From Planktomarina sp. (lineage in GTDB: Bacteria > Pseudomonadota > Alphaproteobacteria > Rhodobacterales > Rhodobacteraceae): a DNA stretch of 64,000 bases. Below are positions 23,525 through 55,400 of this stretch, piece after piece; position 1 is the stretch's first letter; every line of letters starts with the position of its first letter. The position numbers and the translations under genes were made by a program. The stretch spans positions 13,008 to 77,007 of the forward strand of contig JAHDBC010000008.1 of assembly GCA_020630595.1 (NCBI GenBank). Reading direction: 5' to 3'. The notes beneath the pieces are model-generated. The model worked only from the letters and a program-made list of their open reading frames with translations. It was not told the DNA's origin and made no database searches.

Positions 23525-23723
23525 GGCCCATTTTGGCGGAAAATCCTGATATCGGATTGTGATTTTTCGCGCCGAAACCTGTTTTGATCGAAATATGCTA
23601 CGGTCACGTTTTCTTTTTCGGCTGTAACACCCAAAAACTTCTGTTCCAAAGCGCACATAACTGCAGTGCCGCCCCTTTGGTTCCGTGCATCTTTGCGTTG
23701 GGTGTTCAATTGTGCACAGCCTG

Positions 23724-23739
23724 TGTGATCCTTGTCACA
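23724..23739. promoter_or_regulatory. perfect TGTGA-N6-TCACA palindrome (CRP/FNR-family type operator candidate)
   Basis: TGTGATCCTTGTCACA read directly, about 190 nt upstream of the first tandem small-protein gene, inside a roughly 400-nt non-coding gap. Confidence 0.4.
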
Positions 23740-23930
23740 GAACCACCCCACCCGGCGCGCGCCCACTGATTTCAAGGGGGCAGCCCTTTGGAATTTCAGC
23801 ATTTTTTCGTGAAGGACTTGCCCCCTTTTTTTCCGGGGGCGGATGCACAGATCGATGTCATCGGCGCAACAAACCGCACCGAACACAACATCAACCGCCC
23901 ATCCCCCCGGGCATAGAAAGGACCAAACAA

Positions 23931-24254
23931 ATGAAACTGGTAAAAATCTCTTTGATCGCTGCTGCAACACTGGCTGGCGCTTCTGCAGCCTCTGCGGCCA
24001 ACTATTTCTCCATCAACTCTGGCATCGATGCATTCGATACGGTTGTGGATCTGAACGTTGTACGGTCCGACCAAGCGGGCGTTGTGCAAATCCTGGACGC
24101 TGATGGCAACGTTCTGGGCATGACAGACGTTAACGCCGGTGCGAACCAAGACCTGCGCGTCAGCATCAAACCAACAACCGACGATCTGACACTGCAACTG
24201 CTGCACGGCGGTTCTGTTGTGGCCACAGGCGAAGTGAACGTCGACCGCTTCTAA
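23931..24254 (+). CDS. small secreted protein of unknown function, paralog 1
   Basis: 107 aa. Sec signal peptide MKLVKISLIAAATLAGASAASA. GAAAGGA Shine-Dalgarno-like sequence upstream. The mature part is identical at protein level to paralog 2. Confidence 0.7.
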   Translation: MKLVKISLIAAATLAGASAASAANYFSINSGIDAFDTVVDLNVVRSDQAGVVQILDADGNVLGMTDVNAGANQDLRVSIKPTTDDLTLQLLHGGSVVATGEVNVDRF

Positions 24255-32195: not shown

Positions 32196-33248
32196 ATGGC
32201 GCGGGGCATTCAGGGCACCTTCGTGATCGCATGGTCACAGGTAACGGTTGACGGAATGCCCGGGGTCGCGCCGGCGGATATGACGCAAGGGGTCAGTTGG
32301 GGATGGCGCGGGGACGCCGTCCGCGTCGACGGCCCCGCAGAGCTTTTGACATTGGGGGATGCAGACGGCCAGCAGGATATCCGTGCGCGTGCCTCCAAAA
32401 TCGTGCGCAAACTGGTGGGCGCGACCGTTCAAAACAAGAAAATCACCGATGTCGAACTGGATGGAACGCTGGAAGACCAGACCGTTCTTTTGACAGACGG
32501 ACGACTGACCTACACCATGACGTTGATTGAAACGCCCGGTGGGTTGCCGCTGTGTATGTTCGTGGATGAACTGCCACCACAGGGCGCTGATCTTTGGGTT
32601 GTCGATCTGGCGCTTGCCGATCCGAACCGGCCCGTGGCCGCCGAAACGGGCGGGATCATCTGTTTTACCGATACAACCTTTATCGCAACCCCATCCGGGG
32701 GGACCCGCGTGTCTGAACTGGCGCCCGGCGATCTGGTGATGACCCGCGACAGCGGCCCGAAACCCATTTTGTGGATCGGACGGCGCCGCGTTTCCGGGGC
32801 GCGGCTGCATGTGATGCCGCAAATGCGCCCCATCCGGCTGCGCGCCAACGCACTGGGGCAGGATATGCCCGGTGGTGACATTCTGGTGTCGCCGCATCAC
32901 CGGATGGTGGTGCAAGGCCGCGTGGCGCTGGATCTGTTCAACACACACGAAGTGTTGGTGGCGGCCAAGGATCTGGTCAACGGACGCAGCATTTACCACG
33001 AACCACGCGTGCGCGAAGTGGTGTATCATCATATCCTTCTGGAATCCCACGAAGTGCTGTGGGCCAATGGTGTGATGACGGAAAGTTTCCAACCGGCCCA
33101 TATGGATTTGGCCACATTGGAAGACACGCAACGGGCGCAACTGTTTGATCTGTTTCCCGATCTGGAATGGGATCGCGACAGCTATGGCGGCGATGCCCGG
33201 CGCACGTTGTCCGCGTCCGAAGCGGCGATCCTGAAACACGCACGATAA
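32196..33248 (+). CDS. Hint (Hedgehog/intein-like) domain protein
   Basis: 350 aa. The C-terminal half has CFTDTTFIATPSGGTRVSELAPGDLVMTRDSGPKPILWIG ... HILLESHEVLWANGVMTESF, typical of the Hint_2-type domain that is abundant in Rhodobacteraceae. Confidence 0.8.
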   Translation: MARGIQGTFVIAWSQVTVDGMPGVAPADMTQGVSWGWRGDAVRVDGPAELLTLGDADGQQDIRARASKIVRKLVGATVQNKKITDVELDGTLEDQTVLLTDGRLTYTMTLIETPGGLPLCMFVDELPPQGADLWVVDLALADPNRPVAAETGGIICFTDTTFIATPSGGTRVSELAPGDLVMTRDSGPKPILWIGRRRVSGARLHVMPQMRPIRLRANALGQDMPGGDILVSPHHRMVVQGRVALDLFNTHEVLVAAKDLVNGRSIYHEPRVREVVYHHILLESHEVLWANGVMTESFQPAHMDLATLEDTQRAQLFDLFPDLEWDRDSYGGDARRTLSASEAAILKHAR

Positions 33249-33395
33249 ACCCCGGAATAATCCGTTGACTCTGCCCTTTTGCAGGGGCATACGCCGCGCA
33301 TTGGTGTTGGTGGACCCCGCAAGGGGAACCCTGTCGTCGCAGTGACAGCTGCGGAGAGGACAACGCCCTCTAAACTTGAAAGAGGAGATCAGCCG

Positions 33396-34016
33396 GTGAC
33401 AAAACGGACCGCTGCCAAATATAAAATTGACCGTCGGATGGGTGAAAACATCTGGGGTCGTCCAAAATCCCCAGTCAACCGCCGTGAATATGGCCCCGGC
33501 CAGCACGGTCAGCGCCGCAAGGGCAAAATGTCTGACTTCGGTCTGCAGCTGCGCGCCAAGCAAAAGCTGAAGGGGTACTATGGCGACCTGACCGAAAAAC
33601 AGTTCCGCCGCATCTATGCGGAAGCGGAACGTGTGAAAGGCGACACAGGCGAAAACTTGATCGGTTTGCTGGAACGCCGTCTGGACGCTGTGGTGTATCG
33701 CGCGAAATTCGTGCCAACCATCTTTGCGGCCCGTCAGTTCGTGAACCACGCCCACGTCACAGTGAACGGCAAGCGGGTGAACATCCCGTCTTACCGCGTG
33801 AAAGAAGGCGACGTGATCGCCGTGCGCGACAAATCCAAGCAAATCGCATTGGTGTTGGAAGCAACGCAATCGCCCGAACGGGACGTGCCTGATTATCTGG
33901 ACGTGGATCATTCGAAAATGACCGCCACCTTTGTCCGGTCCCCAGGCCTGTCTGATGTGCCTTATCCGGTGATGATGGAACCAAACCTCGTCATCGAATA
34001 CTACGCTCAGAACTAA
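33396..34016 (+). CDS. rpsD: 30S ribosomal protein S4
   Basis: GTG at 33396, preceded by AGAGGAG. (V)[25 protein letters not shown]... gives 206 aa and a C-terminal S4 RNA-binding domain. Confidence 0.94.
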
Positions 34017-35226: not shown

Positions 35227-36122
35227 TTTACGAAAAGGTTGCCTTGATTGGGCTGGGCCACATTGCGTCTTCGATGGCCCATGGCATGCGCCGCGCAGGA
35301 TGCGTGGGCACGATTACCGGCTTTGCCCGCAGTGCTGAAACGCGCCAAACCGCGCGCGACATCGGGTTGTGTGATCGTGTTGCAGACAGCGCAGCGGATG
35401 CGGTTCTGGATGCGGATCTGGTGGTGTTGTGCGTGCCGGTTGGCGCGATGGGCCCTGTGATGGAACAGATCGCCGGCGCGATGAAGCCCGGGGCGACATT
35501 GACGGATGTTGGATCGGTCAAGCGCAGCATTATTGCAGCCGTCGAACCGCATTTGCCGGACACCGTAGATTTCGTGCCCGGCCACCCCCTGGCCGGAACA
35601 GAACATTCTGGCCCCACATCGGGCTTTGCCGAATTGTTCGACAACAGATGGTGCCTGCTGACACCCTTGCCGGGCACAGAAGCCGCCACAGAAAAGCTGA
35701 CGAAATTCTGGGAAGCGCTGGGCGCGAATGTCGGTGTGACCGACCCGGAACACCATGATCTGGTGTTGGCCGTGACATCCCACGCACCGCACTTGATTGC
35801 CTATACAATGGTGGGTGTGGCAGATGATCTGGGCCGGGTCACCGAATCCGAGGTTATCAATTATTCCGCAACAGGCTTTCGCGATTTCACCCGTATCGCG
35901 GCCAGCGATCCAACCATGTGGCGGGATGTGTTTTTGACCAACAAAGACGCGACGCTTGAAATCCTTGGTCGATTTACCGAGGAACTTTTTGCCCTTCAGC
36001 GCGCTATCCGTACAGGCGACGGAGATCACTTGCATGCCTATTTCACCCGCACCCGTGCCATTCGCCGCGGGATCATTGACGCAGGTCAAGACACTGATGC
36101 GCCGAATTTTGGCCGGGATTAG
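35223..36122 (+). CDS. tyrC: prephenate/arogenate (cyclohexadienyl) dehydrogenase
   Basis: ATG at 35223 overlaps the hisC stop (ATGA). Rossmann segment [14 protein letters not shown] and [12 protein letters not shown]. About 299 aa. Confidence 0.85.
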
Positions 36123-36744
36123 CCTTGCGCTGATAGGATCGGGCTGTGTTCTGGCAGATGCGCCCGAAAGCAGCCTGAAACCGCAAATCCGCCCTGCCGA
36201 TTTGCGTGTCGTGGTAAAGCCCGGCCCGATTTGCGGGTCAGACGGCATCATTGGGCGTACCCTTGCCCCGGTTGAAGGGCGACTGCCCGGGTGTGGCATT
36301 GCGCAGCCAGTGTCCGTCACGCAGGTTCTGGGCGTAACGCTTTCCCAACCCGCACGCATGGATTGCCCCACGGCGCTGGCGCTGGAAGAATGGACCCAGA
36401 CAGGGGTGATTGATTTGGTGGGTGATTTCCGCGGCGGCGTTGATCAGTTTCAGGTCGCCGCCCATTATGTTTGCCGCAACAGGTACAACCGCCCCAACGC
36501 CAAAATTTCAGAACATGCCAAAGGCCGGGCGATTGATATTTCCGGCTTTCGCATGGGCGATGGCAGCCGCATGACGCTGCTGCAAGACTGGGATGATGGC
36601 ATCAAGGGGCGGTTCCTGCACCAGATGCACGACACCGCATGCGGAATATTCGGAACGGTTCTGGGCCCCGATGCGAACGCCGCACATGCGGATCATTTCC
36701 ACTTTGACACGGCGCAATATCGCAGCGGGTCTTACTGCCGTTAG
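36097..36744 (+). CDS. extensin-like C-terminal domain protein (predicted exported, metallopeptidase-like fold)
   Basis: Start at [20 protein letters not shown] (signal or lipobox-like). ISEHAKGRAIDISGF and HADHFHFD motifs. Overlaps the tyrC end by 26 nt. Confidence 0.72.
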   Translation: MRRILAGISLALIGSGCVLADAPESSLKPQIRPADLRVVVKPGPICGSDGIIGRTLAPVEGRLPGCGIAQPVSVTQVLGVTLSQPARMDCPTALALEEWTQTGVIDLVGDFRGGVDQFQVAAHYVCRNRYNRPNAKISEHAKGRAIDISGFRMGDGSRMTLLQDWDDGIKGRFLHQMHDTACGIFGTVLGPDANAAHADHFHFDTAQYRSGSYCR

Positions 36745-37745
36745 CGCAGGCGCAACAACGGGGCAGGGCCCAGCGGGATGAACCCCAGCTTCATCTGGCC
36801 CGCGTCGATGTTCAATGGCACGTCCAACGTGTTTTCCGGGCCTGATGCGCGCGACAATGCCCCCAACAGACCTTCCAACGTTCCGGCGGTGTTGCGCGGC
36901 AGCGTTCCGTTTTCAACGGCCAACGCCAGCGCCTGTCGCCAGTTGGTCACTTTGAACGTCACTTCGCCATCAATCCGGCCGCGCGCGTCAACGGTGCCTT
37001 GTCCCGCCAGCCGCAAATCCAATTCGCCCCATGTGGCCTGCATGTTTGACAGATCAAAGGCCGTTGGTTGGGGCCGGGCCTGTTCGATGGCAGACCGATC
37101 CCATGGCCGGTCAAAGGTCATGGTCACATCCAATAGGGCGGTTTGAAACGTATCGGGCAGACGGTCCTGTGGGTCGATGATGCCCTTGAACAGCGCGCCG
37201 GGCACCATATCGGTTGCCTTGAAATGAATGTCATAGGTTGCATCGGTTCCATCGACCAACCGCACGGCGGAAAACCCGTCGGCAATCGCGCCTTGCCAGC
37301 CCGCGCTGCTGGACAGCTGGACCGCCTTTAGCTGAAACCGGGCTTCGTCCAGCGCGAAATTGTCAGTGCCCTTTACGTTCACGGATGCGCGCATGTCGTC
37401 CGATGTTACGGTCAACGTGCCATCGGGGGCAAAGAAGTCCTGCGTGTTGGGCCAGACTGCAATGATGTTCGTTGGATCATACGACAGTGTCAGCACTTGA
37501 AAAAACGGCGCGGTCCAACCGACGCCTGTGCGGGGGTCGGCCAACCGCACATCTGTCATGGTGGTGTCAAACCGGTTGGGAAAGCCGCTGGTCGACACAT
37601 CGGTGACATCGGCGGCCCAGCCTTCGGCACGGCGGTCATCGAACCAACCCTTGACCTGTGCTGTCACGGTAGAGGATCCGACCGCCCAATAGATCGACCA
37701 GCCAAGGGCCAACACCACAATCAACCAAAACAGTTTGCGCATCAT
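36741..37745 (-). CDS. DUF2125-family exported protein
   Basis: 334 aa. N-terminal membrane anchor MMRKLFWLIVVLALGWSIYWAV. The SGFPNRFD segment is typical of DUF2125 as I recall it. Confidence 0.68.
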   Translation of the reverse strand: MMRKLFWLIVVLALGWSIYWAVGSSTVTAQVKGWFDDRRAEGWAADVTDVSTSGFPNRFDTTMTDVRLADPRTGVGWTAPFFQVLTLSYDPTNIIAVWPNTQDFFAPDGTLTVTSDDMRASVNVKGTDNFALDEARFQLKAVQLSSSAGWQGAIADGFSAVRLVDGTDATYDIHFKATDMVPGALFKGIIDPQDRLPDTFQTALLDVTMTFDRPWDRSAIEQARPQPTAFDLSNMQATWGELDLRLAGQGTVDARGRIDGEVTFKVTNWRQALALAVENGTLPRNTAGTLEGLLGALSRASGPENTLDVPLNIDAGQMKLGFIPLGPAPLLRLR

Positions 37746-37820: not shown

Positions 37821-38345
37821 ATGTGGGTCTTTGCCTATGGATCATTGCTGTGGAACCCCGGGTTCACGCCCGCAGAACAGGTGCGTGCCGATGTGCCGGG
37901 GTACGGGCGCAGTTTTTGCATGTGGTCTATCCATCATCGCGGGTCAGAAGACGACCCGGGGCTGGTGCTTGCCCTTGATCGGGGGGCAGGGGTCTGTGCC
38001 GGGATGGCATTGCGTACCCAAGACGCTGAGGCGGATACCGTTCTGGCCATGCTGCGCGAACGCGAATTGATTTCATCCGCCTACGAAGAAGTCTGGTTGC
38101 CGTTGACCCTGTCTGATGGCCGTCAGGTCGACGCCGTGACCTATGTGATCAACCGCGATCACGTGCAATACTGCCCTGATCTGACGCTGGAACGGCAAGC
38201 GCAAATCATCGCCCATGCCGTGGGCGGGCGCGGGCCCAATCGTGAATATTTGTACAATACGGCCCAGTTGTTGCGTGATCTGGACATTCCGGACCCAGAT
38301 ATGGACTGGTTAACCACCCGCGTGCGGGAATTATCGCACGATTAG
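37821..38345 (+). CDS. chaC: ChaC-family gamma-glutamylcyclotransferase
   Basis: Start at MWVFAYGSLLWNPGF (YGSL motif). GLVLALD, and RGPNREYLYNT near the C-terminus. About 174 aa. Confidence 0.8.
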   Translation: MWVFAYGSLLWNPGFTPAEQVRADVPGYGRSFCMWSIHHRGSEDDPGLVLALDRGAGVCAGMALRTQDAEADTVLAMLRERELISSAYEEVWLPLTLSDGRQVDAVTYVINRDHVQYCPDLTLERQAQIIAHAVGGRGPNREYLYNTAQLLRDLDIPDPDMDWLTTRVRELSHD

Positions 38346-38411: not shown

Positions 38412-39611
38412 ATGGCGACCCAAGACCGCGACACCGGCATTCAGTTTTCGCAGCCGTTTTCCCAGATTTTGACGATGATCATCATCATGGCACTGGTGAT
38501 CGCGATGGGGTATCTGGCGTTCCCGTCCGTGGGTCCGGTGTTTCTGGCAAACCCCTATTTCAACGGGGTGATCCTGGTGGTGTTTATCGTCGGTGTCGTG
38601 ACCTGCTTTATTCAGGTCACGTCGCTTGTGCGATCGGTGCAATGGATCGAAGGGTTCGCAACACAGACCGTGGGTCACCATCTGACCACCCCGCCGCAAC
38701 TTTTGGCACCGTTGGCGGCTTTGCTGCGCCAGCGCGGTGCCCGATTGCAGCTGGGGTCAGCATCATCGCGGTCGATCCTTGATTCTGTGGCGACCCGCAT
38801 CGATGAACAGCGCGACCTAACCCGATATATCACGAACGTGCTGATTTTTCTGGGTCTGTTGGGGACGTTTTACGGGCTGGCAACCACTGTGCCTGCGCTG
38901 GTGCAAACCATTCAATCCCTGACCCCAACCGATGGCGAAGACGCATTGGCGATTTTCGCGCGGCTGCAATCGGGTCTTGAAGGGCAGTTGGATGGGATGG
39001 GCATCGCCTTTGCATCATCCCTTCTTGGGTTGGCCGGGTCATTGGTTGTCGGCCTGTTAGAGGTGTTCGCAGGTCGGGGGCAAAACCGGTTTTATGGCGA
39101 ATTGGAAGAATGGTTGTCGTCCATCACCCGCGTCGGCTTTGCCGGGGGCGATGGGGATGGGGCCGCAGACCAATCCGTTTTGGCGGCGATGATGGATCAC
39201 ATGTCTGAACAGATGGACGGCATGAACCAGATGTATGCCCAAGCCAGCGCAGGGCAGGCCGATGTGGAAGCGCGGCTTGTGACGCTGACATCCACATTGG
39301 ACAAGCTGGCGCGCAAGCTGGACACAGGCCAAACCGAAGCCTTGGAACGGGTGGCCACCAGTCAGGAACAAATCGTCGCCCGGATGCAAGCCGATGGCGG
39401 CGGCGGTGACGGGATCGATGCCGAAAGCCGGATGCGCCTGCGGTCTATCGATGTTCAGCTTTTGCGAATTCTCGAAGAAATCTCTGCCGGACGACAAGAA
39501 AGCGTGTCTGAATTGCGCACCGATCTGGCCAATCTGTCGAAATCCATGCGCGCCTTTGCCCGTGCGACACAGCAATCCCAACAGGGCAACACGCCCAGAA
39601 AAGACGGCTGA
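38412..39611 (+). CDS. MotA/TolQ/ExbB-like proton-channel family protein with a ~175-aa hydrophilic C-terminal tail
   Basis: 399 aa with four hydrophobic segments. FLGLLGTFYGLATT and GIAFASSLLGLAGSLVVG resemble the TM3/TM4 signature of the MotA_ExbB family. Its stop overlaps the start of the next gene (TGATG). Confidence 0.72.
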   Translation: MATQDRDTGIQFSQPFSQILTMIIIMALVIAMGYLAFPSVGPVFLANPYFNGVILVVFIVGVVTCFIQVTSLVRSVQWIEGFATQTVGHHLTTPPQLLAPLAALLRQRGARLQLGSASSRSILDSVATRIDEQRDLTRYITNVLIFLGLLGTFYGLATTVPALVQTIQSLTPTDGEDALAIFARLQSGLEGQLDGMGIAFASSLLGLAGSLVVGLLEVFAGRGQNRFYGELEEWLSSITRVGFAGGDGDGAADQSVLAAMMDHMSEQMDGMNQMYAQASAGQADVEARLVTLTSTLDKLARKLDTGQTEALERVATSQEQIVARMQADGGGGDGIDAESRMRLRSIDVQLLRILEEISAGRQESVSELRTDLANLSKSMRAFARATQQSQQGNTPRKDG

Positions 39612-41989
39612 TGGCGCTGACGCGGCGCACGGGCGCACGGTTCCAGGCCTCTATCTGGCCGGGGTTCGTGGATGCCATGACGGGCCTTTTGCTGGTCCTG
39701 ATGTTCGTGTTGACGATCTTTATGGTCATGCAATTCGTGCTGCGCGAAACGATCAAGGGGCAGGGGTCCGAACTGGAAGAACTGAACCAGACGATCGAAA
39801 CCAAGGATTTGGAACTGGCGGCCCTTGCATCCCAAATCGCACAACTTGGCAATGCGTTGGGGTTGGAACAGGATACAACCGCCGCCCTGCGCAATCAGGT
39901 GACTGGGTTGACCGGGTCATTGGAAACCGCACAAGATCAGATTGGGCAGCAATCGGCCCTGATCGGACGGCTGACCGCGCAACTGGAAACACAGACCGGG
40001 CGCATCGCGGATTTCGAAACCCAAGTGGCCAGCCTTTTGGCCCAACGCGATGATGCCAATGCGCGCATCGCCGGGCTGGAAGATGACACCGCAACCCTGA
40101 CCCAGCAATTGGTCGCCGCCCGCGACGATATCGACGCCGCCGCCGAAGCCGCCGCATTGGCTGCCGCCCAACGCGAAGCGTTGGAAGCGCGGATCGACAG
40201 CCTGCGCGCAGAAGCCGCGCAAACACAAACATCGCTGACCGACACACTGGCCCTTTTGGCCGCAACCCGGGATCGCGTTGCCGCACTGGATACCACCAAA
40301 GCTGATCTGGAAGCACAGGCCGAAGATCTGCAATCCCAGCTGACGATCGCCGAACGCGAAGCTGCCGCCGCTGTGATCCTGCGTCAGGAACTGGCCAACA
40401 GTCAGGCCGCGCTATCCGCCGAAGAACAGGCCAAAGTCGCAGAAATGCTGGCCGCAGAACAGCTGCGCAAGGATTTGGAAGCGGCACAATCCGATCTGTC
40501 TGCCTTGCAATTGGTGTTGAACGAAGAACGCAAACAGGCCGAAGAAACGCTGGCCCTGTTGGCCGCTGCCAATGCGGTTCAGACGGATCTGGACGCGCAA
40601 CTGGCAACCACGATTTTGGCATTGGAAGCGGCGCAGGCGCAAACCTCCCTGACCGAAGATGAACTTGCCGCCGCACGTGGCACCGCCGAAGACACGCAAG
40701 ACCGCCTGACCGAAGCCTTGGCCCGATTGACGGCACGCGAAGCGGAGTTGACCCGCATTCAGGCCGGTCTGGCAGCGGCAGAAGCAACCTTGGGCGACCG
40801 CAATGCCGAACGCGACGCATTGGCGGCGGCCCTTGCTGCCGCGCAGTCGGATGTGCAGGCGGCCCTGTCAGATGTGGCCGCACGCGAAGCGGAAATTGCG
40901 GGGTTGCGTGATCTGTTAGCGCAGGCACAGGGCACGGTCGGCGACCGGGACGCGGAATTGGCGCAGCTTTTGGCGGATCTAAATGCCGCGCAGGCGGATT
41001 TGACAACTGCGCGTCAGGATCTTCAGGCGGCCCGGGACGCAGCTGACGCAACGACCACGGATCTGCAGGCGCGCCTGACGCGGGCAGAACGGGCGGCACA
41101 GGATGCCGGGTCTGCAGCCACCGATCTGCGCGCACAGGTTGCCGCGGCATTGGCCGCCCGTGCGCTGGCCGAAGACGACGCAGCCCTGCAACTGTCAGAG
41201 GCAGAGCGCCAGTCGCTGCTGTTGGCGCAGGCGCAAGCGCAGCTGGACACGGAACGTGAAATATCATCCGCCGCCCAGCGCCAAGTCGAAGCGCTGCGGC
41301 AGCAGATTCAGTCGCTGGAACGGGAACTGTCCAATCTGGGTGGTTTGCTGGATCAAAGCGAAGAACGCGATGCGGCCCGCCAGATTGAACTGTCCAATCT
41401 GGGAACGCGCCTGAACAGTGCGCTGGCGGATGCTGCGCTTCAGGCCCGCCGCGCCGAACGGCTGGAAGAAGCCGAACGGATCCGTCTGGAAGAAGAAGCG
41501 GCGCGTCTGGCCGCCGAAGCGCAGACATTGGAACGGTATAAGTCAGAATTCTTGGGCCAGGTGCGCGAATTGCTGGAAGGGCGCGAAGGCGTCAGCCTTG
41601 TGGGGGATCGGTTCGTGTTCAGTTCCGAAGTTCTGTTCCCGCCGGGTGGGGCGGAATTGTCGCCAGCAGGGGAAGATCAGATCACCCGGATTGCCAGCCT
41701 GTTGCGCGAAATCGCGGCCGATATTCCAGAAGGCATTGATTGGGTCATTCAGGTGGATGGGCACACCGACAACGTGCCGTTGTCGGGCACGGGTCAGTTC
41801 GCCAACAACTGGGAACTGTCGCAGGCGCGCGCATTGTCGGTTGTGCTGTATATGGTCAATTTTCTGGGGCTGCCGCCAGAACGTCTTTCGGCCAATGGGT
41901 TTGGCCAGCATCAACCTTTGAACCCCGCCAACACGGATGAGGCGCGCGCCCAAAACCGCCGGATCGAATTGAAATTCACTGAAAAATAA
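39611..41989 (+). CDS. MotB-like plug/TM protein with a ~600-aa coiled-coil-like spacer and a C-terminal OmpA-type peptidoglycan-binding domain
   Basis: 792 aa. N-terminal WPGFVDAMTGLLLVLMFVL is a MotB-type TM with the conserved Asp. The long middle region is rich in Ala, Leu, Glu, Gln and Arg. The C-terminus has VDGHTDNVP...NWELSQARA...NRRIELKF. Confidence 0.8.
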   Translation: MALTRRTGARFQASIWPGFVDAMTGLLLVLMFVLTIFMVMQFVLRETIKGQGSELEELNQTIETKDLELAALASQIAQLGNALGLEQDTTAALRNQVTGLTGSLETAQDQIGQQSALIGRLTAQLETQTGRIADFETQVASLLAQRDDANARIAGLEDDTATLTQQLVAARDDIDAAAEAAALAAAQREALEARIDSLRAEAAQTQTSLTDTLALLAATRDRVAALDTTKADLEAQAEDLQSQLTIAEREAAAAVILRQELANSQAALSAEEQAKVAEMLAAEQLRKDLEAAQSDLSALQLVLNEERKQAEETLALLAAANAVQTDLDAQLATTILALEAAQAQTSLTEDELAAARGTAEDTQDRLTEALARLTAREAELTRIQAGLAAAEATLGDRNAERDALAAALAAAQSDVQAALSDVAAREAEIAGLRDLLAQAQGTVGDRDAELAQLLADLNAAQADLTTARQDLQAARDAADATTTDLQARLTRAERAAQDAGSAATDLRAQVAAALAARALAEDDAALQLSEAERQSLLLAQAQAQLDTEREISSAAQRQVEALRQQIQSLERELSNLGGLLDQSEERDAARQIELSNLGTRLNSALADAALQARRAERLEEAERIRLEEEAARLAAEAQTLERYKSEFLGQVRELLEGREGVSLVGDRFVFSSEVLFPPGGAELSPAGEDQITRIASLLREIAADIPEGIDWVIQVDGHTDNVPLSGTGQFANNWELSQARALSVVLYMVNFLGLPPERLSANGFGQHQPLNPANTDEARAQNRRIELKFTEK

Positions 41990-42017: not shown

Positions 42018-42998
42018 CTATGGGTCGGGCGGCCCTACGATCGTAGTGACCGTTTTTTCTTCAATCACGGTGCCGTTGCGGATCAGGCGCATCGTGGCGG
42101 TATATGTGCCTTCGGCCCACAAATCATCCCTGCGCCGCCGCCCCATATAATTCAGCGATGCAAATTTGCGGTCACGTTCCAGCGTGGTTTGCCCAGACCA
42201 GAATGGCCCGTCGGGGCCAATGATTTCGGCCCAAACGACATCGCCCGTTTTCACAGTGTAGCCGTGCGCCCATGCCACCATGGCGGGGGCGTTGGCCGGT
42301 ATGATCGGTGTGGCGTCCAGATCGTCGCGCACATCGGCAAACACCGGCGGAACGCCCGCCAAACCAATCCGCACAAAGCCGCCGGGTTGGTAAGGGATGT
42401 CGCGCAGCCAAAGGTCATTTTCCGATGAAAGATTGCACTGCGCAGTCATATCCGGATTGAACGGATCAACCCGTTGGCGGTCCTTGAACAGGGACAGGTG
42501 TACATGCGGGTAGTTGGTGGCCCCCGACAGGCCAACTTCGCCCAGGACGGCCCCCATCGCAACGCGCTGGCCTTCGGCGACGCTGATGCTGTCTTTTTTC
42601 AGGTGGCAATACTGGGTGATCCAACCGCCCCCATGGTCGATGGCAACACCGTTTCCGCATTCCTGCCCTGCGGTGTTCGGTGCATTGGGATCGGTGTTGG
42701 CGATATCGGGCAGCCCGTCGCGAATGCCGCGCACGGTGCCGGGGGCCATTGCGATGACATCGACGCCGTCGCGCATCTGTTGCAGGTTCAGCAATGCGAA
42801 ATCCACGCCACGGTGATTGTCGCGGGTCACATCATTGCAGGCATAATCCAAAACCGCGCCTTCGCCGGCGTCGCGGTCAAAATAATCATTGATGTAACAA
42901 TCCTGCCCCAAGGTGCAATCAAGGGGCACATCAAACAGCGGTTCCTTGGCCCCGACGGCGGATGCCATCAGGGCCAAAGGCAACACTGCGAACCGCAT
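42018..42998 (-). CDS. M23-family (LytM-type) metallopeptidase, exported
   Basis: 326 aa. Signal peptide [25 protein letters not shown] (HxxxD) and YPHVHLSLF (HxH). The start overlaps the clpA stop by 1 nt (TGATG). Confidence 0.85.
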   Translation of the reverse strand: MRFAVLPLALMASAVGAKEPLFDVPLDCTLGQDCYINDYFDRDAGEGAVLDYACNDVTRDNHRGVDFALLNLQQMRDGVDVIAMAPGTVRGIRDGLPDIANTDPNAPNTAGQECGNGVAIDHGGGWITQYCHLKKDSISVAEGQRVAMGAVLGEVGLSGATNYPHVHLSLFKDRQRVDPFNPDMTAQCNLSSENDLWLRDIPYQPGGFVRIGLAGVPPVFADVRDDLDATPIIPANAPAMVAWAHGYTVKTGDVVWAEIIGPDGPFWSGQTTLERDRKFASLNYMGRRRRDDLWAEGTYTATMRLIRNGTVIEEKTVTTIVGPPDP

Positions 42999-52043: not shown

Positions 52044-52441
52044 TGGCGGGATCGATGCAATTTGACCTGGTCAGCCCGGAACGAAGCCTTGCTTCGTTTC
52101 AGGCGACCGAGGTCCAGATCCCAGGGGCAGATGGGGACATGACGGCGATGCCGGATCATGCACCCACGCTGACAACCCTGCGCCCCGGTGTGCTGGTGGT
52201 GAAAGCAGATGGCGGTGATCAAGAATACGTGGTCACGGGCGGTTTTGCTGAAATTTCACCCGCTGGCATTTCCGTGCTTGCGGAACGTGCCATGCCAAAG
52301 TCCGAAGTGACAGCGGCGGATATCGCTGCGATGGTCGAAGCTGCAGAAGCGGTGGCCGCCGGTAAATCGGCAAGCGAACTGGACGATGCGAACAAAGCCG
52401 TCGCTGATGTTCGTGCGCTTGGTGCTGCACTGGGCCTATAA
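52043..52441 (+). CDS. atpC: F0F1 ATP synthase subunit epsilon
   Basis: 132 aa. The start overlaps the atpD stop (TAATG). Position and size fit atpC. Confidence 0.9.
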
Positions 52442-52470
52442 CGCCGTCACAACAAAAACACAGTTTTTGA

Positions 52471-52499
52471 AAAAGGCCCCTTATGCGGGGCCTTTTTTG
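52471..52499 (+). terminator. rho-independent terminator after atpC
   Basis: AAAAGGCCCC-TTATGC-GGGGCCTTTTTT, a perfect hairpin with flanking A and T runs. Confidence 0.8.
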
Positions 52500-52538
52500 T
52501 GGATAACGTCTGTGCAGGGGAATTTGGGACGGTGTTGC

Positions 52539-52889
52539 ATGCGCAAGCTTCGCAGCCATTTGACAGGTATCGATCAGGGAGAGGTTGTTCTTTTCTCTGA
52601 TTTCGAAGATGACGGCCAAATGTGGGCCGGCACCGGTCCACGCGAACAGCGCAAGGCGGTCGTATTTTCAGAAGCTTACCAATCCATCCCTTCAGTGACG
52701 GTTGGCTTGTCAATGTGTGACATCGATGGCCAGACAAGCGTCCGCACAGACATTCGCCCCGAAAACATCACTGAAACAGGATTCGAAATCGTGTTCCGCA
52801 CATGGTCCGATACGCGGATCGCACGGGTGCGCGCATCGTGGCAGTCCATCGGCGAATTGGAAGATGAAGACAGCTGGCAGCTGTATTAA
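52539..52889 (+). CDS. H-type lectin domain protein
   Basis: Start at ATG 52539 ([10 protein letters not shown]...). [24 protein letters not shown]...[29 protein letters not shown] fits the H_lectin pattern. 116 aa with no signal peptide. Confidence 0.62.
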
Positions 52890-53905: not shown

Positions 53906-54006
53906 TCGATCGTCCCCCAGCATCGATTGCGCGACTCGCGCCGTTGACACCCCCTAACACGGGGCTAGGGTCAGGCAAAGCTAAGTCATTGAAAGGGCGC
54001 GTCCAA

Positions 54007-54609
54007 ATGGCCAAAATCACATACTACTTTGCAACAATTTCGCCCTACACCTATCTGGCGGGCACCCGGCTTGAAGAAATGGCGGCGGCGGTTGGCGCGA
54101 CCATCGATTATCGTCCGCTTGATATCATGGGGCTGTTTGCCCGCACGGGCGGCACACCCCCAAAAGACCGCCACCCGAACCGGCAAGATTGGCGGGCGCA
54201 GGAACTGGTGCGCCAAGCAAAAAAGCTGGATATGCCGTTTCATCTGAAGCCTGCCCATTGGCCCACGAATATGGCGCCGTCCTCTTATGCGTTCATTTCC
54301 GCAAAGAATCACGGATCGGGCGGCGATTTGGGCGCGTTGGTGCATGCCTTCACCCGCGCCTGCTGGGCCGAAGAAAAGGATATCGCCACCCCTGATGTGA
54401 TCGCCGCATGTCTGACATCTGCCGGGTTTGATCCGTCGTTGGCCGACAAGGATATGATGGGCGCGGCCGAAGAATATGCCCGCAATCTGGAAGATGCGGT
54501 TGCCGCAGGGGCGTTTGGCGCGCCGTTTTACATCACCGAAGACGATCAACGGTTCTGGGGCCAAGACCGGATCGAAGATTTGGGCCTGCATCTTCAGGGC
54601 AAGCTGTGA
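54007..54609 (+). CDS. 2-hydroxychromene-2-carboxylate isomerase / DsbA-like thioredoxin-fold protein
   Basis: Start at MAKITYYFATISPYTYLAG. C-terminal GAPFYITEDDQRFWGQDRIEDL is typical of the HCCA isomerase family. 200 aa. Confidence 0.8.
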   Translation: MAKITYYFATISPYTYLAGTRLEEMAAAVGATIDYRPLDIMGLFARTGGTPPKDRHPNRQDWRAQELVRQAKKLDMPFHLKPAHWPTNMAPSSYAFISAKNHGSGGDLGALVHAFTRACWAEEKDIATPDVIAACLTSAGFDPSLADKDMMGAAEEYARNLEDAVAAGAFGAPFYITEDDQRFWGQDRIEDLGLHLQGKL

Positions 54610-55400
54610 CGTATGAAACACGCGCTGGCGTAAAGATATTTCACAAAACAACGGGTGACGGCACCCCTGCGATTTTCAGCCACTGTTCGCTGGGCAATCA
54701 CAACATCTGGCGTCCGCTTGTTGATCGGATGTCGGATGGCTGGCGCTGCACGGCCATTGATTTGCCAGACCATGCGCGATCAGATGCAACACCGGTGGGG
54801 CAGGATCCCCAACGGCTTGCCGCGGATGTGCTGTTGGATCTGGCATCGGATCATGAGGAACCCGTTCATCTTGTCGGGCATTCATTTGGCGGCACTGCCG
54901 CACTTTTGGCCGCCGTCACACAGCCGGAAATGTTCGGGTCTTTGACATTGCTGGAACCCGTGCCCTTCGGCATCGCCAAGGGAACAAAAGCGTATGACGA
55001 TCATAGCGCCGCCTTGGCTGATTTTCCCGCAGCGTTGGCTGCTGGAAACAAGCGCAAGGCGGCAGAGATTTTTCATGCCGTTTGGGGTGGGGGTGTCAAA
55101 CTTTCACATCTTCAAGAAGGGCATATGATTGCGATCATCGAAAACATTCAGGTGATCGGCAGACAAGGCCCCGCTTTGTACGATGATATCAATGGCATTA
55201 TGCGACCGGGTGGTCTTGCCCAGATCACATGCCCCGTGCGGTTGGTTGGTGCTGATCGCAGCCCATCCATCGCGGCGGTGATGTTGGATGTGTTGCACCA
55301 GCACATGCCCCACGCGGTGCGCCATACCATTGCCGACGCCGGCCATATGTTTCCACAAACGCATCCCAGTCAGGTCGCGGATATTTTGCAGACGCTTTGA
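54606..55400 (+). CDS. alpha/beta-fold hydrolase
   Basis: 264 aa. Nucleophile elbow GHSFGG and a C-terminal GHMFPQTHP. The GTG start overlaps the upstream stop. Confidence 0.78.
   Translation: MTYETRAGVKIFHKTTGDGTPAIFSHCSLGNHNIWRPLVDRMSDGWRCTAIDLPDHARSDATPVGQDPQRLAADVLLDLASDHEEPVHLVGHSFGGTAALLAAVTQPEMFGSLTLLEPVPFGIAKGTKAYDDHSAALADFPAALAAGNKRKAAEIFHAVWGGGVKLSHLQEGHMIAIIENIQVIGRQGPALYDDINGIMRPGGLAQITCPVRLVGADRSPSIAAVMLDVLHQHMPHAVRHTIADAGHMFPQTHPSQVADILQTL

What the first reader, a model, noticed from the sequence alone, without database searches (positions are those of the whole stretch)
38412..41989. Orphan MotA/ExbB-like plus MotB/OmpA-like gene pair: candidate uncharacterised ion-driven stator-type machine
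Seen in sequence:
- The two ORFs overlap by one base (TGATG at 39609-39613), so they are probably translationally coupled.
- Subunit A (399 aa) has four hydrophobic segments. The last two carry FLGLLGTFYGL and GIAFASSLLGLAGSLVVG, which resemble the TM3/TM4 channel signature of the MotA/TolQ/ExbB family.
- Subunit B (792 aa) starts with a short basic segment and a single TM, WPGFVDAMTGLLLVLMF. This mirrors the MotB motif (YADFMTAMMAFF) including the protonatable Asp (D21 here).
- B ends in an OmpA-type peptidoglycan-binding domain (DGHTDNVP, NWELSQARA, NRRIEL).
Established knowledge: this combination defines the 5:2 rotary motor family, which includes MotAB, ExbBD, TolQR, AglRQS, GldLM and ZorAB.
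Inference: no flagellar, TonB, Tol-Pal, gliding or Zorya (zorC/zorD) genes lie within 15 kb on either side, and both subunits carry unusually long extensions. The pair therefore does not look like any characterised member and may be a distinct envelope-anchored motor of unknown output.
Basis: partly seen in the sequence, partly recalled or inferred. Interest (0 to 1): 0.8.

Follow-up and report, generated by a model that had tools for sequence, protein, structure and literature searches.

The report
Conserved alphaproteobacterial stator-like membrane gene pair
Two overlapping genes encode a distant, non-flagellar relative of the ion-driven MotAB/ZorAB membrane motors, fixed to the cell wall through a very long periplasmic coiled coil; the pair is a core feature of Alphaproteobacteria and nobody knows what it drives.

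Summary

A is a very divergent MotA/ExbB/TolQ/ZorA-type channel subunit. It gives no Pfam hit itself. The link rests on relatives that pass or nearly pass PF01618, on ZorA profile hits, and on a predicted fold that matches TolQ, ExbB and ZorA.

B has three parts: a single TM helix with an Asp that never varies (WPGFVD), a proline-free coiled coil of about 600 residues, and a MotB/PomB-type peptidoglycan-binding domain. Indels in the coiled coil come in multiples of 7 residues (p about 1e-36).

A is followed directly by B in 80/80 Rhodobacterales genomes, in 76/76 other evaluable metagenomic loci, and in Sinorhizobium meliloti. The context is always housekeeping. The pair is never on phages or true plasmids, and never beside flagellar, Ton, Tol or Zorya partner genes.

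B belongs to NCBIfam PRK09039 (NF006542), a named family of unknown function. The "motAB" pair of the flagellum-less Komagataeibacter hansenii is very probably a member. Perturbing it changes cell length, colony spreading and cellulose texture, but the mechanism is unknown.

Best reading: a distinct, wall-anchored 5:2-type ion-driven complex with a housekeeping envelope role. It is a new variant of a known kind.

The parts
38412..39611 (+). Gene A, 399 aa: divergent MotA/ExbB/TolQ/ZorA-type channel subunit with four predicted TM helices and a cytoplasmic helical tail of about 180 aa
   Evidence: ORF. Homologues. PADLOC ZorA1 E 2.9e-9. AF2 model. Foldseek hits to TolQ/ExbB/ZorA. Relatives pass or approach PF01618.
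38472..38627 (+). A TM1-TM2 hairpin (aa about 21-41 and 50-72); invariant N51, G61
   Evidence: Hydrophobic segments read from the translation. Helices 16-35, 37-46 and 48-83 in the AF2 model. Invariant columns.
38628..38831 (+). A compact cytoplasmic loop (aa 73-140), basic, with invariant W78 and R138. At most three helices, so no MotA-type torque-generating interface
   Evidence: AF2 helices 48-83 (extension), 96-108 and 116-169. Conservation. FIT/GIT criteria from PMC12505986.
38832..39068 (+). A channel core: TM3 (aa 141-160, LIFLGLLGTFYGLATTVP), periplasmic loop (161-195) and TM4 (196-219, GMGIAFASSLLGLAGSLVVGLLEVF). Holds nearly all family-wide invariant residues
   Evidence: Invariant F146 L147 G148 L150 G151 T152 G155 L156 L185 M196 A199 F200 G206 L207 across members 28-60% identical. 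This is the region matched by PF01618 in relatives and by ZorA models.
39069..39608 (+). A cytoplasmic tail (aa 220-399): three helices separated by Gly-rich linkers, with the highly conserved motif D-x-ESRMRLRSIDVQLLRILEE-x-S-x-GRQE at aa 336-363 (nt 39417-39500)
   Evidence: Alignment. AF2 helices 178-244, 254-328 and 337-390. Fixed length and no heptad indel signal. Moderately conserved in other clades and divergent in S. meliloti.
39609..39613 (+). TGATG stop/start overlap between A and B (translational coupling)
   Evidence: Sequence. The A-stop to B-start gap is 20 nt or less, or overlapping, in 135/158 loci.
39611..41989 (+). Gene B, 792 aa: bitopic inner-membrane protein (N-terminus inside) with a TM aspartate, a long periplasmic coiled coil and a peptidoglycan-binding domain. 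Member of NCBIfam NF006542 (PRK09039.1-1)
   Evidence: ORF. NF006542 622 bits against cut-off 388. Homologues.
39656..39739 (+). B TM helix (aa 16-43) with the W-P-G-F-V-D-A-M-T motif; Asp21 codon at 39671-39673
   Evidence: The motif, with its Asp, is present in 83/86 and 76/76 evaluable loci. Invariant W16 P17 G18 V20 D21 A22. N-terminal matches to ZorB2, ZorB3 and ZorB1 models at E 6e-5 to 6e-3.
39740..41575 (+). B periplasmic coiled-coil rod (aa about 44-655): no proline between P17 and P677, 25% Ala, 16% Leu
   Evidence: Composition and heptad occupancy. Heptad-multiple indels: 118/244, p 1e-36. AF2 shows six long helices. Length varies from 340 to 1126 aa across the family. Not a DNA tandem repeat.
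41576..41986 (+). B C-terminal MotB/PomB-type peptidoglycan-binding domain (Pfam OmpA at aa 675-783)
   Evidence: PF00691 E 4e-19. Best PDB sequence matches are MotB 3khn (2.5e-18), PomB (1e-17) and MotS, extending upstream of the OmpA core.
38321..38340 (+). Terminator-like hairpin at the end of the upstream ChaC gene, suggesting A-B is its own transcription unit (weak evidence)
   Evidence: The count of such sites does not exceed the shuffle expectation, so this is only a hint.

Best explanation
A and B form one inner-membrane complex of the MotAB/ExbBD/TolQR/ZorAB type, most likely five A around two B.

Proposed mechanism: the two B TM helices, each with the invariant Asp21, sit inside a ring formed by A's TM3/TM4 helices. 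Ions (H+ or Na+, undetermined) pass via Asp21 and drive relative rotation of A around B.

B is fixed to the cell wall by a MotB/PomB-type peptidoglycan-binding domain. That domain is carried on a parallel dimeric heptad coiled coil, about 600 residues long here and 135-1000 residues in relatives. The rod is too long to stand upright in the periplasm, so it must lie obliquely or in the plane of the wall and act as a long leash or rod.

The output is probably taken from A's compact, conserved cytoplasmic tail.

The system is a vertically inherited housekeeping module of Alphaproteobacteria. Its most likely role is in envelope, cell-shape or division physiology. It is not flagellar rotation, TonB-type import or phage defence.

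Shown here: gene pairing, domain architecture, membership of the superfamily, invariance of the Asp and channel residues, the coiled-coil nature of the rod, and the housekeeping context.

Inferred: 5:2 stoichiometry, ion flow, rotation, geometry of the rod, and the physiological role.
For: Superfamily membership of A:
- PADLOC ZorA1 E 2.9e-9, plus nine further ZorA models.
- 10/10 divergent members hit PF01618 on TM3 at 13-22 bits, and four members pass the 22.9-bit threshold.
- Foldseek's top 50 hits are almost all TolQ, ExbB or ZorA chains, with probability about 1 and target TM-score 0.43-0.57.
- Family-wide invariant residues are concentrated in TM3/TM4.

Stator-type features of B:
- The Asp-containing TM motif is present in every B found.
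- The N-terminus matches ZorB models at the corresponding profile positions.
- The C-terminal domain is closest to MotB, PomB and MotS among solved structures.

Obligate pairing and coupling:
- Adjacency in 80/80 and 76/76 loci, and in S. meliloti.
- TGATG overlap here, and a gap of 20 nt or less in 135/158 loci.

Coiled coil:
- No proline over about 650 residues.
- 48% of indels of 5 aa or more are multiples of 7, p 1e-36, spread along the rod.

Housekeeping status:
- Conserved synteny and housekeeping neighbours.
- No phage hit and no true plasmid hit.

Physiology:
- In the probable K. hansenii member, overexpression elongates cells and changes colony spreading, and disruption is viable and alters cellulose texture (PMC6570709; PMC7347698).
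- Membership is supported by primer-encoded termini that are identical to those of family members.
Against: - The window's A gets no PF01618 hit at E<=1.
- A 30-sequence profile of A finds no ExbB, TolQ, MotA or ZorA chain in PDB by sequence.
- No Foldseek hit reaches E<=1e-3, and the A model is only moderately confident at pLDDT 68.5.
- B's TM segment has no Pfam MotB_plug hit and no PDB profile hit.
- No multimer model could be made, so 5:2 stoichiometry is untested.
- A rod of about 90 nm between motor and wall anchor has no precedent in this superfamily. It is hard to reconcile with rigid torque transmission.
- One Rhodospirillaceae lineage has A without an adjacent B.
- The K. hansenii phenotypes are indirect. 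The reported polar MotB-GFP signal is doubtful on general knowledge, because a C-terminal GFP would be periplasmic.
Confidence: 0.6

Rival explanations
1. Passive structural tether or periplasmic scaffold. B is a long coiled-coil strut linking the inner membrane to peptidoglycan, and A is merely its membrane partner or chaperone. The channel is degenerate, and nothing flows or rotates.
For: A is so divergent that it fails PF01618 and sequence-profile searches of PDB. The rod is far longer than the periplasm and its length drifts freely in heptad steps. That suits a leash or scaffold better than a torque-bearing axle. Pfam gives faint crescentin-rod-like hits to some B proteins.
Against: The TM Asp of B is present in every B found, across members as low as 28% identical. 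Nearly all invariant residues of A lie in the TM3/TM4 channel region, including the GLLGT threonine. Such conservation is what a working ion pathway predicts and is unnecessary for a passive anchor.
Confidence: 0.15
2. Tol-Pal/Ton-like force transducer. The A-B motor uses the B coiled coil, in the way TolA domain II is used, to reach and pull on a wall or outer-membrane partner. The secreted OmpA-like protein encoded upstream in most lineages would be a candidate partner. The system would energise outer-membrane tethering or constriction.
For: Fold matches are best to TolQ and ExbB. The cytoplasmic domain is compact, as in TolQ and AglR (PMC12505986). A secreted OmpA-like gene lies immediately upstream in 38/49 non-Rhodobacterales loci. 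The rod is helical and Ala/Glu-rich. Overexpression causes cell elongation in K. hansenii, as reported for tolQ/tolR overexpression in E. coli (PMC6570709).
Against: B carries its own PG-binding domain at the end of the rod, not a TolA-III/TonB-type partner-binding domain. B lacks the ExbD/TolR periplasmic fold. The third gene is absent from the window, from 80 Rhodobacterales loci and from S. meliloti. No outer-membrane partner is encoded nearby.
Confidence: 0.13
3. A second or alternative flagellar stator (a MotAB/PomAB paralogue) whose rotor genes lie elsewhere in the genome.
For: Many sources annotate members as 'flagellar motor protein MotA' or 'chemotaxis protein MotB'. A has the 4-TM topology. 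B's PG-binding domain is closest to MotB and PomB. The D-x-M-T motif resembles MotB.
Against: A hits no flagellar MotA NCBIfam model at E<=1, and B scores 64-92 bits against MotB, MotD and MotS cut-offs of 264-301 bits, through the C-terminal domain only. The TM2-TM3 loop is about 65 aa with at most three helices, so there is no 4-5-helix torque-generating interface (PMC12505986). There is no MotB_plug. No flagellar genes occur in any context examined. The probable K. hansenii member exists in a bacterium stated to lack flagella and flagellar genes (PMC6570709).
Confidence: 0.05
4. A minimal Zorya-like anti-phage sensor, with effectors encoded elsewhere or lost.
For: The best profile hits for both subunits are ZorA and ZorB models, and ZorA chains are among the top fold matches. 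A has a cytoplasmic helical tail.
Against: The tail is about 175 aa and modular, not a coiled coil of about 500 aa. PMC11946911 states that long tails occur in all Zorya subtypes, and the tail here shows no coiled-coil indel signature. ZorB has no linker, whereas B has about 600 aa. No ZorC-G or other defence genes are nearby. The pair sits at a fixed syntenic position in a core housekeeping neighbourhood across orders of Alphaproteobacteria. It is absent from phages and true plasmids.
Confidence: 0.04

Closest known systems
Zorya ZorA-ZorB (5:2 proton-driven anti-phage motor; PDB 8qyd, 8vvn; PMC11946911)
   Same: This is the closest match by profile for both subunits, and it is among the top fold matches. 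Shared features: the A subunit has a MotA/ExbB-like TM core plus a C-terminal cytoplasmic helical extension, the B subunit has a single TM helix with an essential Asp and a PG-binding domain, and the two genes are adjacent.
   Different: ZorA has 3 TM helices and a coiled-coil tail of about 500 aa (70 nm). Here A has 4 predicted TMs and a modular tail of about 175 aa. In ZorB the PG-binding domain is fused directly to the TM helix. Here a heptad coiled coil of about 600 aa intervenes. There are no ZorC/D/E/F/G genes, and the pair is a core, syntenic, vertically inherited locus rather than a defence island.
Flagellar stator MotAB/PomAB (FIT clade of PMC12505986)
   Same: 4-TM A subunit. B subunit with N-terminus inside, a TM Asp in a D-x-M-T context and a C-terminal OmpA-type domain whose nearest solved relatives are MotB, PomB and MotS. 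Overlapping A-B genes.
   Different: No torque-generating interface in the TM2-TM3 loop. No MotB plug. The MotB linker is replaced by a long coiled coil. NCBIfam MotA/MotB equivalogs are not matched. No flagellar context, and the pair is present in the flagellum-less Komagataeibacter (PMC6570709).
TolQR(A)/ExbBD(TonB) (GIT clade)
   Same: Best structural matches for the A monomer. Compact cytoplasmic domain. Sub-threshold or borderline PF01618 hits. Housekeeping envelope context. Both have a long helical periplasmic element, as in TolA domain II.
   Different: ExbB and TolQ have 3 TMs. ExbD and TolR have a different periplasmic fold and no OmpA domain. No TonB or TolA third subunit and no Pal or TolB genes are nearby. 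Here the long helix is part of the B subunit itself and ends in a PG-binding domain.
NCBIfam PRK09039 family (NF006542-NF006546, 'peptidoglycan-binding protein') and the Komagataeibacter hansenii 'motA/motB' pair (Jacek et al. 2019, PMC6570709)
   Same: B passes the NF006542 cut-off. K. hansenii MotA (348 aa, 4 TM) and MotB (321 aa, 1 TM plus OmpA-like domain) are adjacent. Their primer-encoded termini (VTRPTTY......RLTDR*) are identical to those of family members, and relatives of the matching member are Acetobacteraceae.
   Different: These are names and phenotypes, not mechanisms. The NCBIfam entries carry no function. The K. hansenii work treats the genes as 'motility-related' and states that the energy-receiving partner is unknown. 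The window's B is more than twice as long as the K. hansenii protein.
GldLM (type IX secretion and gliding motor)
   Same: It sets a precedent for a 5:2 motor whose B-type subunit carries a long dimeric periplasmic shaft (from established knowledge and PMC8986121, listed).
   Different: No sequence or domain similarity was detected. GldM has no PG-binding domain and GldL has 2 TMs. The comparison is by analogy only.

Membership tests
MotA/ExbB/TolQ superfamily (Pfam PF01618), A subunit | Match to the PF01618 profile over the last two TM helices | tested here: inconclusive
   The window's A has no hit at E<=1. 10/10 divergent family members score 13-22 bits on the TM3 region. Four Acetobacteraceae-clade members score 24.3-25.3 bits, above the 22.9-bit cut-off. 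Membership follows by transitive homology, not directly.
MotA/ExbB/TolQ superfamily, A subunit | ExbB/TolQ/MotA/ZorA-like fold of the monomer | tested here: met
   AF2 model with pLDDT 68.5 overall and 75-89 in the TM core. Foldseek's top 50 PDB hits are almost all TolQ, ExbB or ZorA chains, with probability 0.96-1.0 and target TM-score 0.43-0.57. E-values are only 0.012-0.4.
5:2 rotary motor family (MotAB, ExbBD, TolQR, GldLM, ZorAB) | A5B2 stoichiometry, with the B TM helices inside the A ring | not testable with these tools
   Only single-chain prediction was available. No multimer model or experiment could be run.
5:2 rotary motor family | A single B-subunit TM helix carrying a conserved, protonatable Asp | tested here: met
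   The WPG[FYW]VD motif with Asp is present in every B found (83/86 loci; the other three loci lack B altogether; and 76/76 evaluable loci). D21 is invariant in A2.
5:2 rotary motor family | Adjacent, co-transcribed A and B genes | tested here: met
   TGATG overlap. Adjacency in 80/80 and 76/76 loci and in S. meliloti. Gap of 20 nt or less in 135/158 loci.
Zorya ZorAB | Significant match to ZorA and ZorB profiles | tested here: inconclusive
   PADLOC ZorA1 E 2.9e-9 and ZorB3 E 1e-21, the latter mostly over the OmpA part; the N-terminus alone gives 6e-5. NCBIfam ZorA_4 and ZorA_2 score only 13-14 bits against cut-offs of 500 and 100.
Zorya ZorAB | Long (about 500 aa, 70 nm) pentameric coiled-coil ZorA tail, reported in all subtypes (PMC11946911) | tested here: not met
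   The tail is about 175 aa, split by two Gly-rich linkers. Family median is 170 aa, with no heptad indel signature.
Zorya ZorAB | ZorB PG-binding domain fused to the TM helix without a linker | tested here: not met
   A coiled coil of about 600 aa separates the TM helix from the PG-binding domain.
Zorya ZorAB | Co-located effector genes (ZorC/D, ZorE, ZorF/G), with a patchy, defence-island distribution | tested here: not met
   Neighbours are housekeeping genes. Synteny is conserved across orders. No phage hits and no true plasmid hits.
Flagellar stator MotAB/PomAB (FIT) | Torque-generating interface of 4-5 short helices between TM2 and TM3 of A (PMC12505986) | tested here: not met
   The loop is aa 73-140 with at most three helical elements in the AF2 model, at pLDDT 63-80. 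No flagellar MotA NCBIfam model is hit.
Flagellar stator MotAB/PomAB (FIT) | B subunit with plug, linker and OmpA-like PG-binding domain | tested here: inconclusive
   The PG-binding domain is met: the best PDB matches are MotB and PomB at E 1e-17 to 1e-18. The plug is not detected, with no PF13677 hit even for the isolated N-terminus. The linker is replaced by a coiled coil.
Flagellar stator MotAB/PomAB (FIT) | Association with flagellar genes or a flagellated organism | tested here: not met
   No flagellar genes were seen in the annotated contexts: the window, S. meliloti and the divergent metagenomic loci. The probable K. hansenii member occurs in a bacterium without flagella (PMC6570709).
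ExbBD/TolQR | B subunit with the ExbD/TolR periplasmic domain, plus a TonB/TolA partner | tested here: not met
   B carries an OmpA domain and no ExbD-family hit. No TonB, TolA or Pal genes are nearby.
NCBIfam NF006542 (PRK09039.1-1, 'peptidoglycan-binding protein') | Whole-protein score above the curated cut-off | tested here: met
   622.2 bits against a cut-off of 388. The family has a name but no assigned function.

The most novel reading that the evidence does not exclude
This is a fourth housekeeping 5:2 motor system of diderm bacteria, alongside the flagellar stator, Ton and Tol, and it is specific to Alphaproteobacteria. An ion-driven A5B2 rotor is attached to the cell wall through a dimeric coiled coil 30-150 nm long that runs within the periplasm. 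Rotation or torsion of this rod, or of A's cytoplasmic module, would position or energise envelope growth, division or polar organisation. That would explain the cell-length phenotypes seen in Komagataeibacter. It would be a new way of coupling membrane energy to the wall, and the rod length would be an evolvable parameter that changes in heptad steps.
Probability: 0.25. Interest if true: 0.85.

Novelty: new variant of a known kind. Interest (0 to 1): 0.62.

Why it matters
Each newly characterised branch of the 5:2 ion-driven motor superfamily has revealed a different way of spending membrane energy outside the cytoplasm: the flagellar stator, Ton, Tol, GldLM and Zorya.

This branch is conserved at a fixed chromosomal position in Rhodobacterales (abundant marine bacteria), rhizobia and acetic acid bacteria. 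Databases routinely mislabel it as ExbB or flagellar MotA/MotB, and it has no known output.

Its architecture is the reverse of Zorya, with a short cytoplasmic module and a very long periplasmic coiled coil ending in a wall anchor. It raises a concrete, testable question: how does a rotary motor work through a leash of about 90 nm?

Alphaproteobacteria lack Braun's lipoprotein and organise their envelope differently from E. coli (established knowledge). A dedicated energised link between inner membrane and wall would therefore be relevant to envelope biology, symbiosis and pathogenesis. It also matters for engineering cellulose producers, where the genes already alter the product.

It would also correct a widespread annotation error.

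Tried and rejected
Searches that found nothing:
- Direct Pfam PF01618 and PF13677 searches of the window proteins.
- phmmer of A, and a 30-sequence profile of A, against PDB sequences. Only coiled-coil noise appeared in the tail.
- A profile of B's N-terminus against PDB: no hits.
It aligned Asp to Asp but at 4% probability, so it is not used as evidence.
- The look-up of encoding contigs for the window's own A: no record.
- tRNA and Rfam scans of the whole window: nothing.

Ideas tested and rejected:
- DNA tandem repeats as the origin of B's rod: none found.
- Quantised B lengths beyond the heptad: the lengths are continuous.
- A coiled-coil (ZorA-like) nature for A's tail: 8/81 indels are heptad multiples, not significant.
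- A third OmpA-like gene in the window or in Rhodobacterales: absent.
- Functional linkage to ChaC, DUF2125, Extensin-like_C or the M23 peptidase. They are syntenic only within Rhodobacterales and are replaced by efp-suhB elsewhere. I treat this as inherited synteny, not as an operon.

Literature:
- Searches for PRK09039, ZorAB-like, MotAB-like and rhizobial work gave nothing on this family.
- The exception was the Komagataeibacter papers.
- The S. meliloti Rgs/Tol-Pal paper does not mention the pair.

A promoter consensus scan found no sigma-70-like site. This is uninformative for an alphaproteobacterium.

Full report
**1. Observation**

A is 38412..39611 + (399 aa) and B is 39611..41989 + (792 aa). 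The stop of A (TGA, 39609-39611) and the start of B (ATG, 39611-39613) share one base. All quoted motifs are present in the translations. Asp21 of B is the GAT at 39671-39673. Pfam finds an OmpA domain at B residues 675-783 (E 4e-19), but no PF01618 hit for A and no MotB_plug hit for B. So the sequence observation is confirmed. The two "resemblances" to MotA and MotB had to be tested by other means.

**2. What subunit A is**

A belongs to a large family. The word-indexed search saturated at 8000 hits. An exhaustive profile search of 1.84 billion cluster representatives found 2961 clusters at E<=1e-3 and 635 at E<=1e-30. [quoted passage not shown] Closest relatives are from Planktomarina (81% identity), so the window is from a Roseobacter-group member of the Rhodobacterales.

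Evidence that A is a MotA/ExbB-type subunit:
- Ten ZorA models in PADLOC match at E<=0.05, the best at E 2.9e-9 over residues 134-303.
- 10 of 10 divergent members give sub-threshold PF01618 hits (13-22 bits, cut-off 22.9), always on the TM3 region.
- Four members of the Acetobacteraceae clade pass the threshold at 24.3-25.3 bits.
- An AlphaFold2 monomer model (pLDDT 68.5 overall, 75-89 in the membrane core) retrieves TolQ, ExbB and ZorA chains almost exclusively among the top 50 PDB matches. Probability is about 1 and target-normalised TM-score is 0.43-0.57, although E-values are only 0.012-0.4.
- Across members 28-60% identical, nearly all invariant residues lie in TM3/TM4: R138, F146-L147-G148, L150-G151-T152, G155-L156, M196, A199-F200, G206-L207.

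Evidence on the other side: a sequence profile of A finds no solved ExbB, TolQ, MotA or ZorA chain. The link is therefore remote and rests on fold and on transitive homology.

Architecture of A:
- A has four hydrophobic helices, so its topology is MotA-like with both ends in the cytoplasm.
- The TM2-TM3 loop is compact, about 65 aa with at most three helices. That is the "condensed cytoplasmic domain" type, not the 4-5-helix torque-generating interface that defines flagellar stators (PMC12505986).
- The C-terminal 180 aa form three helices separated by Gly-rich linkers.
- The tail carries a very conserved motif at aa 336-363.
- Tail length is fairly fixed (median 170 aa) and shows no coiled-coil indel signature.
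- S. meliloti has a shorter, divergent tail.

**3. What subunit B is**

B passes the curated cut-off of NCBIfam NF006542 (PRK09039.1-1, "peptidoglycan-binding protein"; 622 bits against 388). This family is named but has no assigned function. B has three parts.

(i) A basic N-terminus and one TM helix with the motif W-P-G-[FYW]-V-D-A.
- The motif, including the Asp, is present in every B found: 83 of 86 loci in the first set (the other three lack B altogether) and 76 of 76 evaluable loci in the second.
- Scanned alone, this segment matches the N-termini of ZorB2, ZorB3 and ZorB1 models at the corresponding profile positions (E 6e-5 to 6e-3).
- It matches nothing in Pfam or PDB.

(ii) Residues about 44-655.
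- There is no proline between P17 and P677. The region is 25% Ala and 16% Leu, with a/d-type hydrophobic occupancy of 0.7-0.85.
- The low-confidence AF2 model shows the TM helix running straight into six long helices.
- The decisive test was evolutionary. Among 58 nearest-neighbour pairs of B homologues, 118 of 244 indels of 5 aa or more are exact multiples of 7. That is 48% against an expected 14% (binomial p about 1e-36).
- The indels are spread along the whole rod and absent from the TM segment and the C-terminal domain (all-pairs version).
- This is the signature of a true heptad coiled coil that must keep its register.
- Single-heptad indels are tolerated anywhere. A parallel in-register homodimer is therefore more parsimonious than intramolecular hairpins (inference).
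- The rod is not a DNA tandem repeat.

(iii) A C-terminal domain.
- Its nearest solved relatives are the periplasmic domains of flagellar stator B subunits: MotB 3khn at E 2.5e-18, PomB at 1e-17, and MotS.
- The alignments start upstream of the OmpA core.

B evolves much faster than A. The best full-length match is 53% identical, against 81% for A. Its length varies widely:
- 512-1126 aa in Rhodobacterales (median 638).
- 329-632 aa in other Alphaproteobacteria (median about 413).
- 342 aa in S. meliloti.

**4. Pairing and context**

- A is followed directly by B in 80/80 Rhodobacterales genome loci.
- The same holds in 76/76 evaluable loci from a metagenome scan seeded with non-Rhodobacterales members.
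- It also holds in three of four individually inspected divergent contigs and in the S. meliloti chromosome.
- The one exception is a Rhodospirillaceae MAG lineage in which A has no downstream B.
- The A-stop to B-start gap is 20 nt or less, or an overlap, in 135/158 loci.

The neighbourhood is housekeeping everywhere.
- In Rhodobacterales the order is hisC, tyrC, Extensin-like_C, DUF2125, ChaC, A, B, M23 peptidase, ClpA.
- In other lineages it is efp, suhB, (OmpA-like gene), A, B, (rpmE).
- Within 15 kb of the window's pair there are no flagellar, Ton, Tol, gliding or Zorya genes.
- There is no homologue in 50,697 phage records. The only "plasmid" hits are chromosome-sized replicons.

A new finding: 38 of 49 non-Rhodobacterales loci with enough upstream sequence carry a secreted OmpA-like gene of 250-320 aa immediately upstream of A on the same strand. 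This third gene is absent from the window, the Rhodobacterales loci and S. meliloti.

**5. Literature**

I found no structural or mechanistic paper on this family. The 2025 survey of MotAB relatives does not describe a group with these features and excluded Zorya from its trees.

One experimental thread exists.
- Komagataeibacter hansenii, stated to lack flagella, has a single adjacent "motA" (348 aa, four TMs) and "motB" (321 aa, one TM plus an OmpA-like domain).
- Overexpression elongates cells, triples colony spreading and loosens the cellulose network.
- The authors state that the energy-receiving partner is unknown (PMC6570709).
- Disruption mutants are viable and make denser cellulose (PMC7347698).

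I could not retrieve the K. hansenii sequences, but the published cloning primers encode the gene ends.
- MotA begins V-T-R-P-T-T-Y and MotB ends R-L-T-D-R-stop.
- Family member P0170 begins MTRPTTYLIRM, and five B proteins in my loci end LRLTDR-stop.
- P0170's close relatives are Acetobacteraceae.

Membership of the K. hansenii pair is therefore very probable but not proven. The reported polar MotB-GFP signal should be treated with caution, because a C-terminal GFP would be periplasmic (my own knowledge).

**6. Mechanism**

The best-supported reading is a MotAB/ZorAB-type complex. A subunits surround two B TM helices, ions pass via Asp21, and A turns relative to B. B is fixed to peptidoglycan.

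What is shown: superfamily membership, invariance of the Asp and of the channel residues, obligate gene pairing, the stator-type PG-binding domain, and the coiled coil. What is inferred: 5:2 stoichiometry, ion flow, rotation and the coupling ion.

The unusual element is geometry.
- The Zorya paper quotes about 9 nm between inner membrane and wall in E. coli. It argues that ZorB, which has no linker, normally cannot reach the wall.
- Here the spacer would be about 90 nm as an extended dimer. Even the shortest relatives would have 20-30 nm.
- The rod therefore cannot stand upright. It must lie obliquely or in the plane of the wall, or fold (inference).
- Its length is free to drift in heptad steps. 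That argues against a strict ruler and for a leash or rod.

The output is most plausibly A's conserved cytoplasmic module. The physiological role is most plausibly in envelope, shape or division, given the core-genome status and the K. hansenii cell-length phenotypes. That last step is weakly supported.

**7. Rivals**

- Passive tether (0.15). It fits the odd rod, but it does not explain the conservation of the ion-pathway residues.
- Tol/Ton-like transducer acting on the upstream OmpA-like protein (0.13). Attractive for lineages with the third gene, but that gene is missing here, and B ends in its own wall anchor.
- Flagellar stator (0.05). It fails on the torque interface, the NCBIfam equivalogs, the gene context and the flagellum-less host.
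- Zorya-type defence (0.04). It fails on tail length, linker, effectors, and core-genome synteny and distribution.

**8. Verdict**

- The pair fails the membership tests for MotAB, ExbBD/TolQR and ZorAB while clearly belonging to their superfamily. I file it as a new variant of a known kind.
- It is not unknown to databases (PRK09039; ExbB and MotA labels) and has been perturbed once in a biotechnology setting. No mechanism, structure or partner is known.
- Interest is 0.62. It is a solid lead in an active field with clear experiments, not a categorical surprise.

Noticed in passing
L084:4483-5232, L086:1711-2547, L081:6964-7929 and 38 of 49 loci among L088-L167: A secreted OmpA-like protein (signal peptide, often a Pro-rich linker, weak OmpA domain, 250-320 aa) is encoded immediately upstream of A on the same strand in most non-Rhodobacterales lineages. 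The order is efp, suhB, this gene, A, B. It is absent from the window, the 80 Rhodobacterales loci and S. meliloti. It may be an ancestral third component.
   Followed up: partly
L081-L083 (Rhodospirillaceae MAG, protein P0240): One lineage has A and the upstream OmpA-like gene but no B downstream. Only a 41-aa ORF follows, then RodZ on the opposite strand. B is either elsewhere or lost.
   Followed up: partly
L022, L052, L057: The B reading frame is interrupted inside the coiled-coil region, although an OmpA-type end is found further downstream. This is either a frameshift or assembly error in low-complexity MAG sequence, or a real pseudogene.
   Followed up: no
PLSDB records CP090106.1 (3.72 Mb, labelled pSymB), NZ_CP069303.1 (4.6 Mb), NZ_CP104127/131/135 (3.5 Mb): Chromosome-sized replicons of Sinorhizobium and Shinella are filed as plasmids. 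The 'plasmid' hits for A are really chromosomal.
   Followed up: yes
window 36100-36744 (+), 36741-37745 (-), 42018-42998 (-): Three envelope-related genes flank the pair in Rhodobacterales: Extensin-like_C, DUF2125 and an M23 peptidase. They are syntenic in 50, 68 and 33 of 80 loci respectively, but not outside the order. A functional link is possible but unsupported.
   Followed up: partly
window 38321-38340 (+): A terminator-like hairpin with a T-rich tail overlaps the last codons of the ChaC-like gene, 70 nt before A's start. This hints that A-B is transcribed separately from ChaC. The number of such sites in the region is not above the shuffle expectation.
   Followed up: no
window 52386-52889 (+): A 167-aa protein with an H-type lectin domain (PF09458, E 2e-18) is encoded directly after, and slightly overlapping, atpC. 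This is an unusual neighbour for the ATP synthase operon.
   Followed up: no
window 32235-33911 (-); also 22889-23524 (+), 23685-24254 (+), 53986-54651 (-): These ORFs have coding-like codon-position GC but no Pfam hit. The 558-aa ORF between the ribonucleotide reductase gene and hisC may be spurious or an unannotated gene.
   Followed up: no
window 38412-41989; proteins P0001 and P0286: A has a 100% match in the protein collection (P0001, NCBI, 83-kb contig). The contig look-up has no record of it, and no identical B was returned (best 53%). B may be uncalled or differently called in the source assembly.
   Followed up: partly
window 1-64000: No tRNA gene and no Rfam family at gathering threshold anywhere in the 64 kb.
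   Followed up: yes
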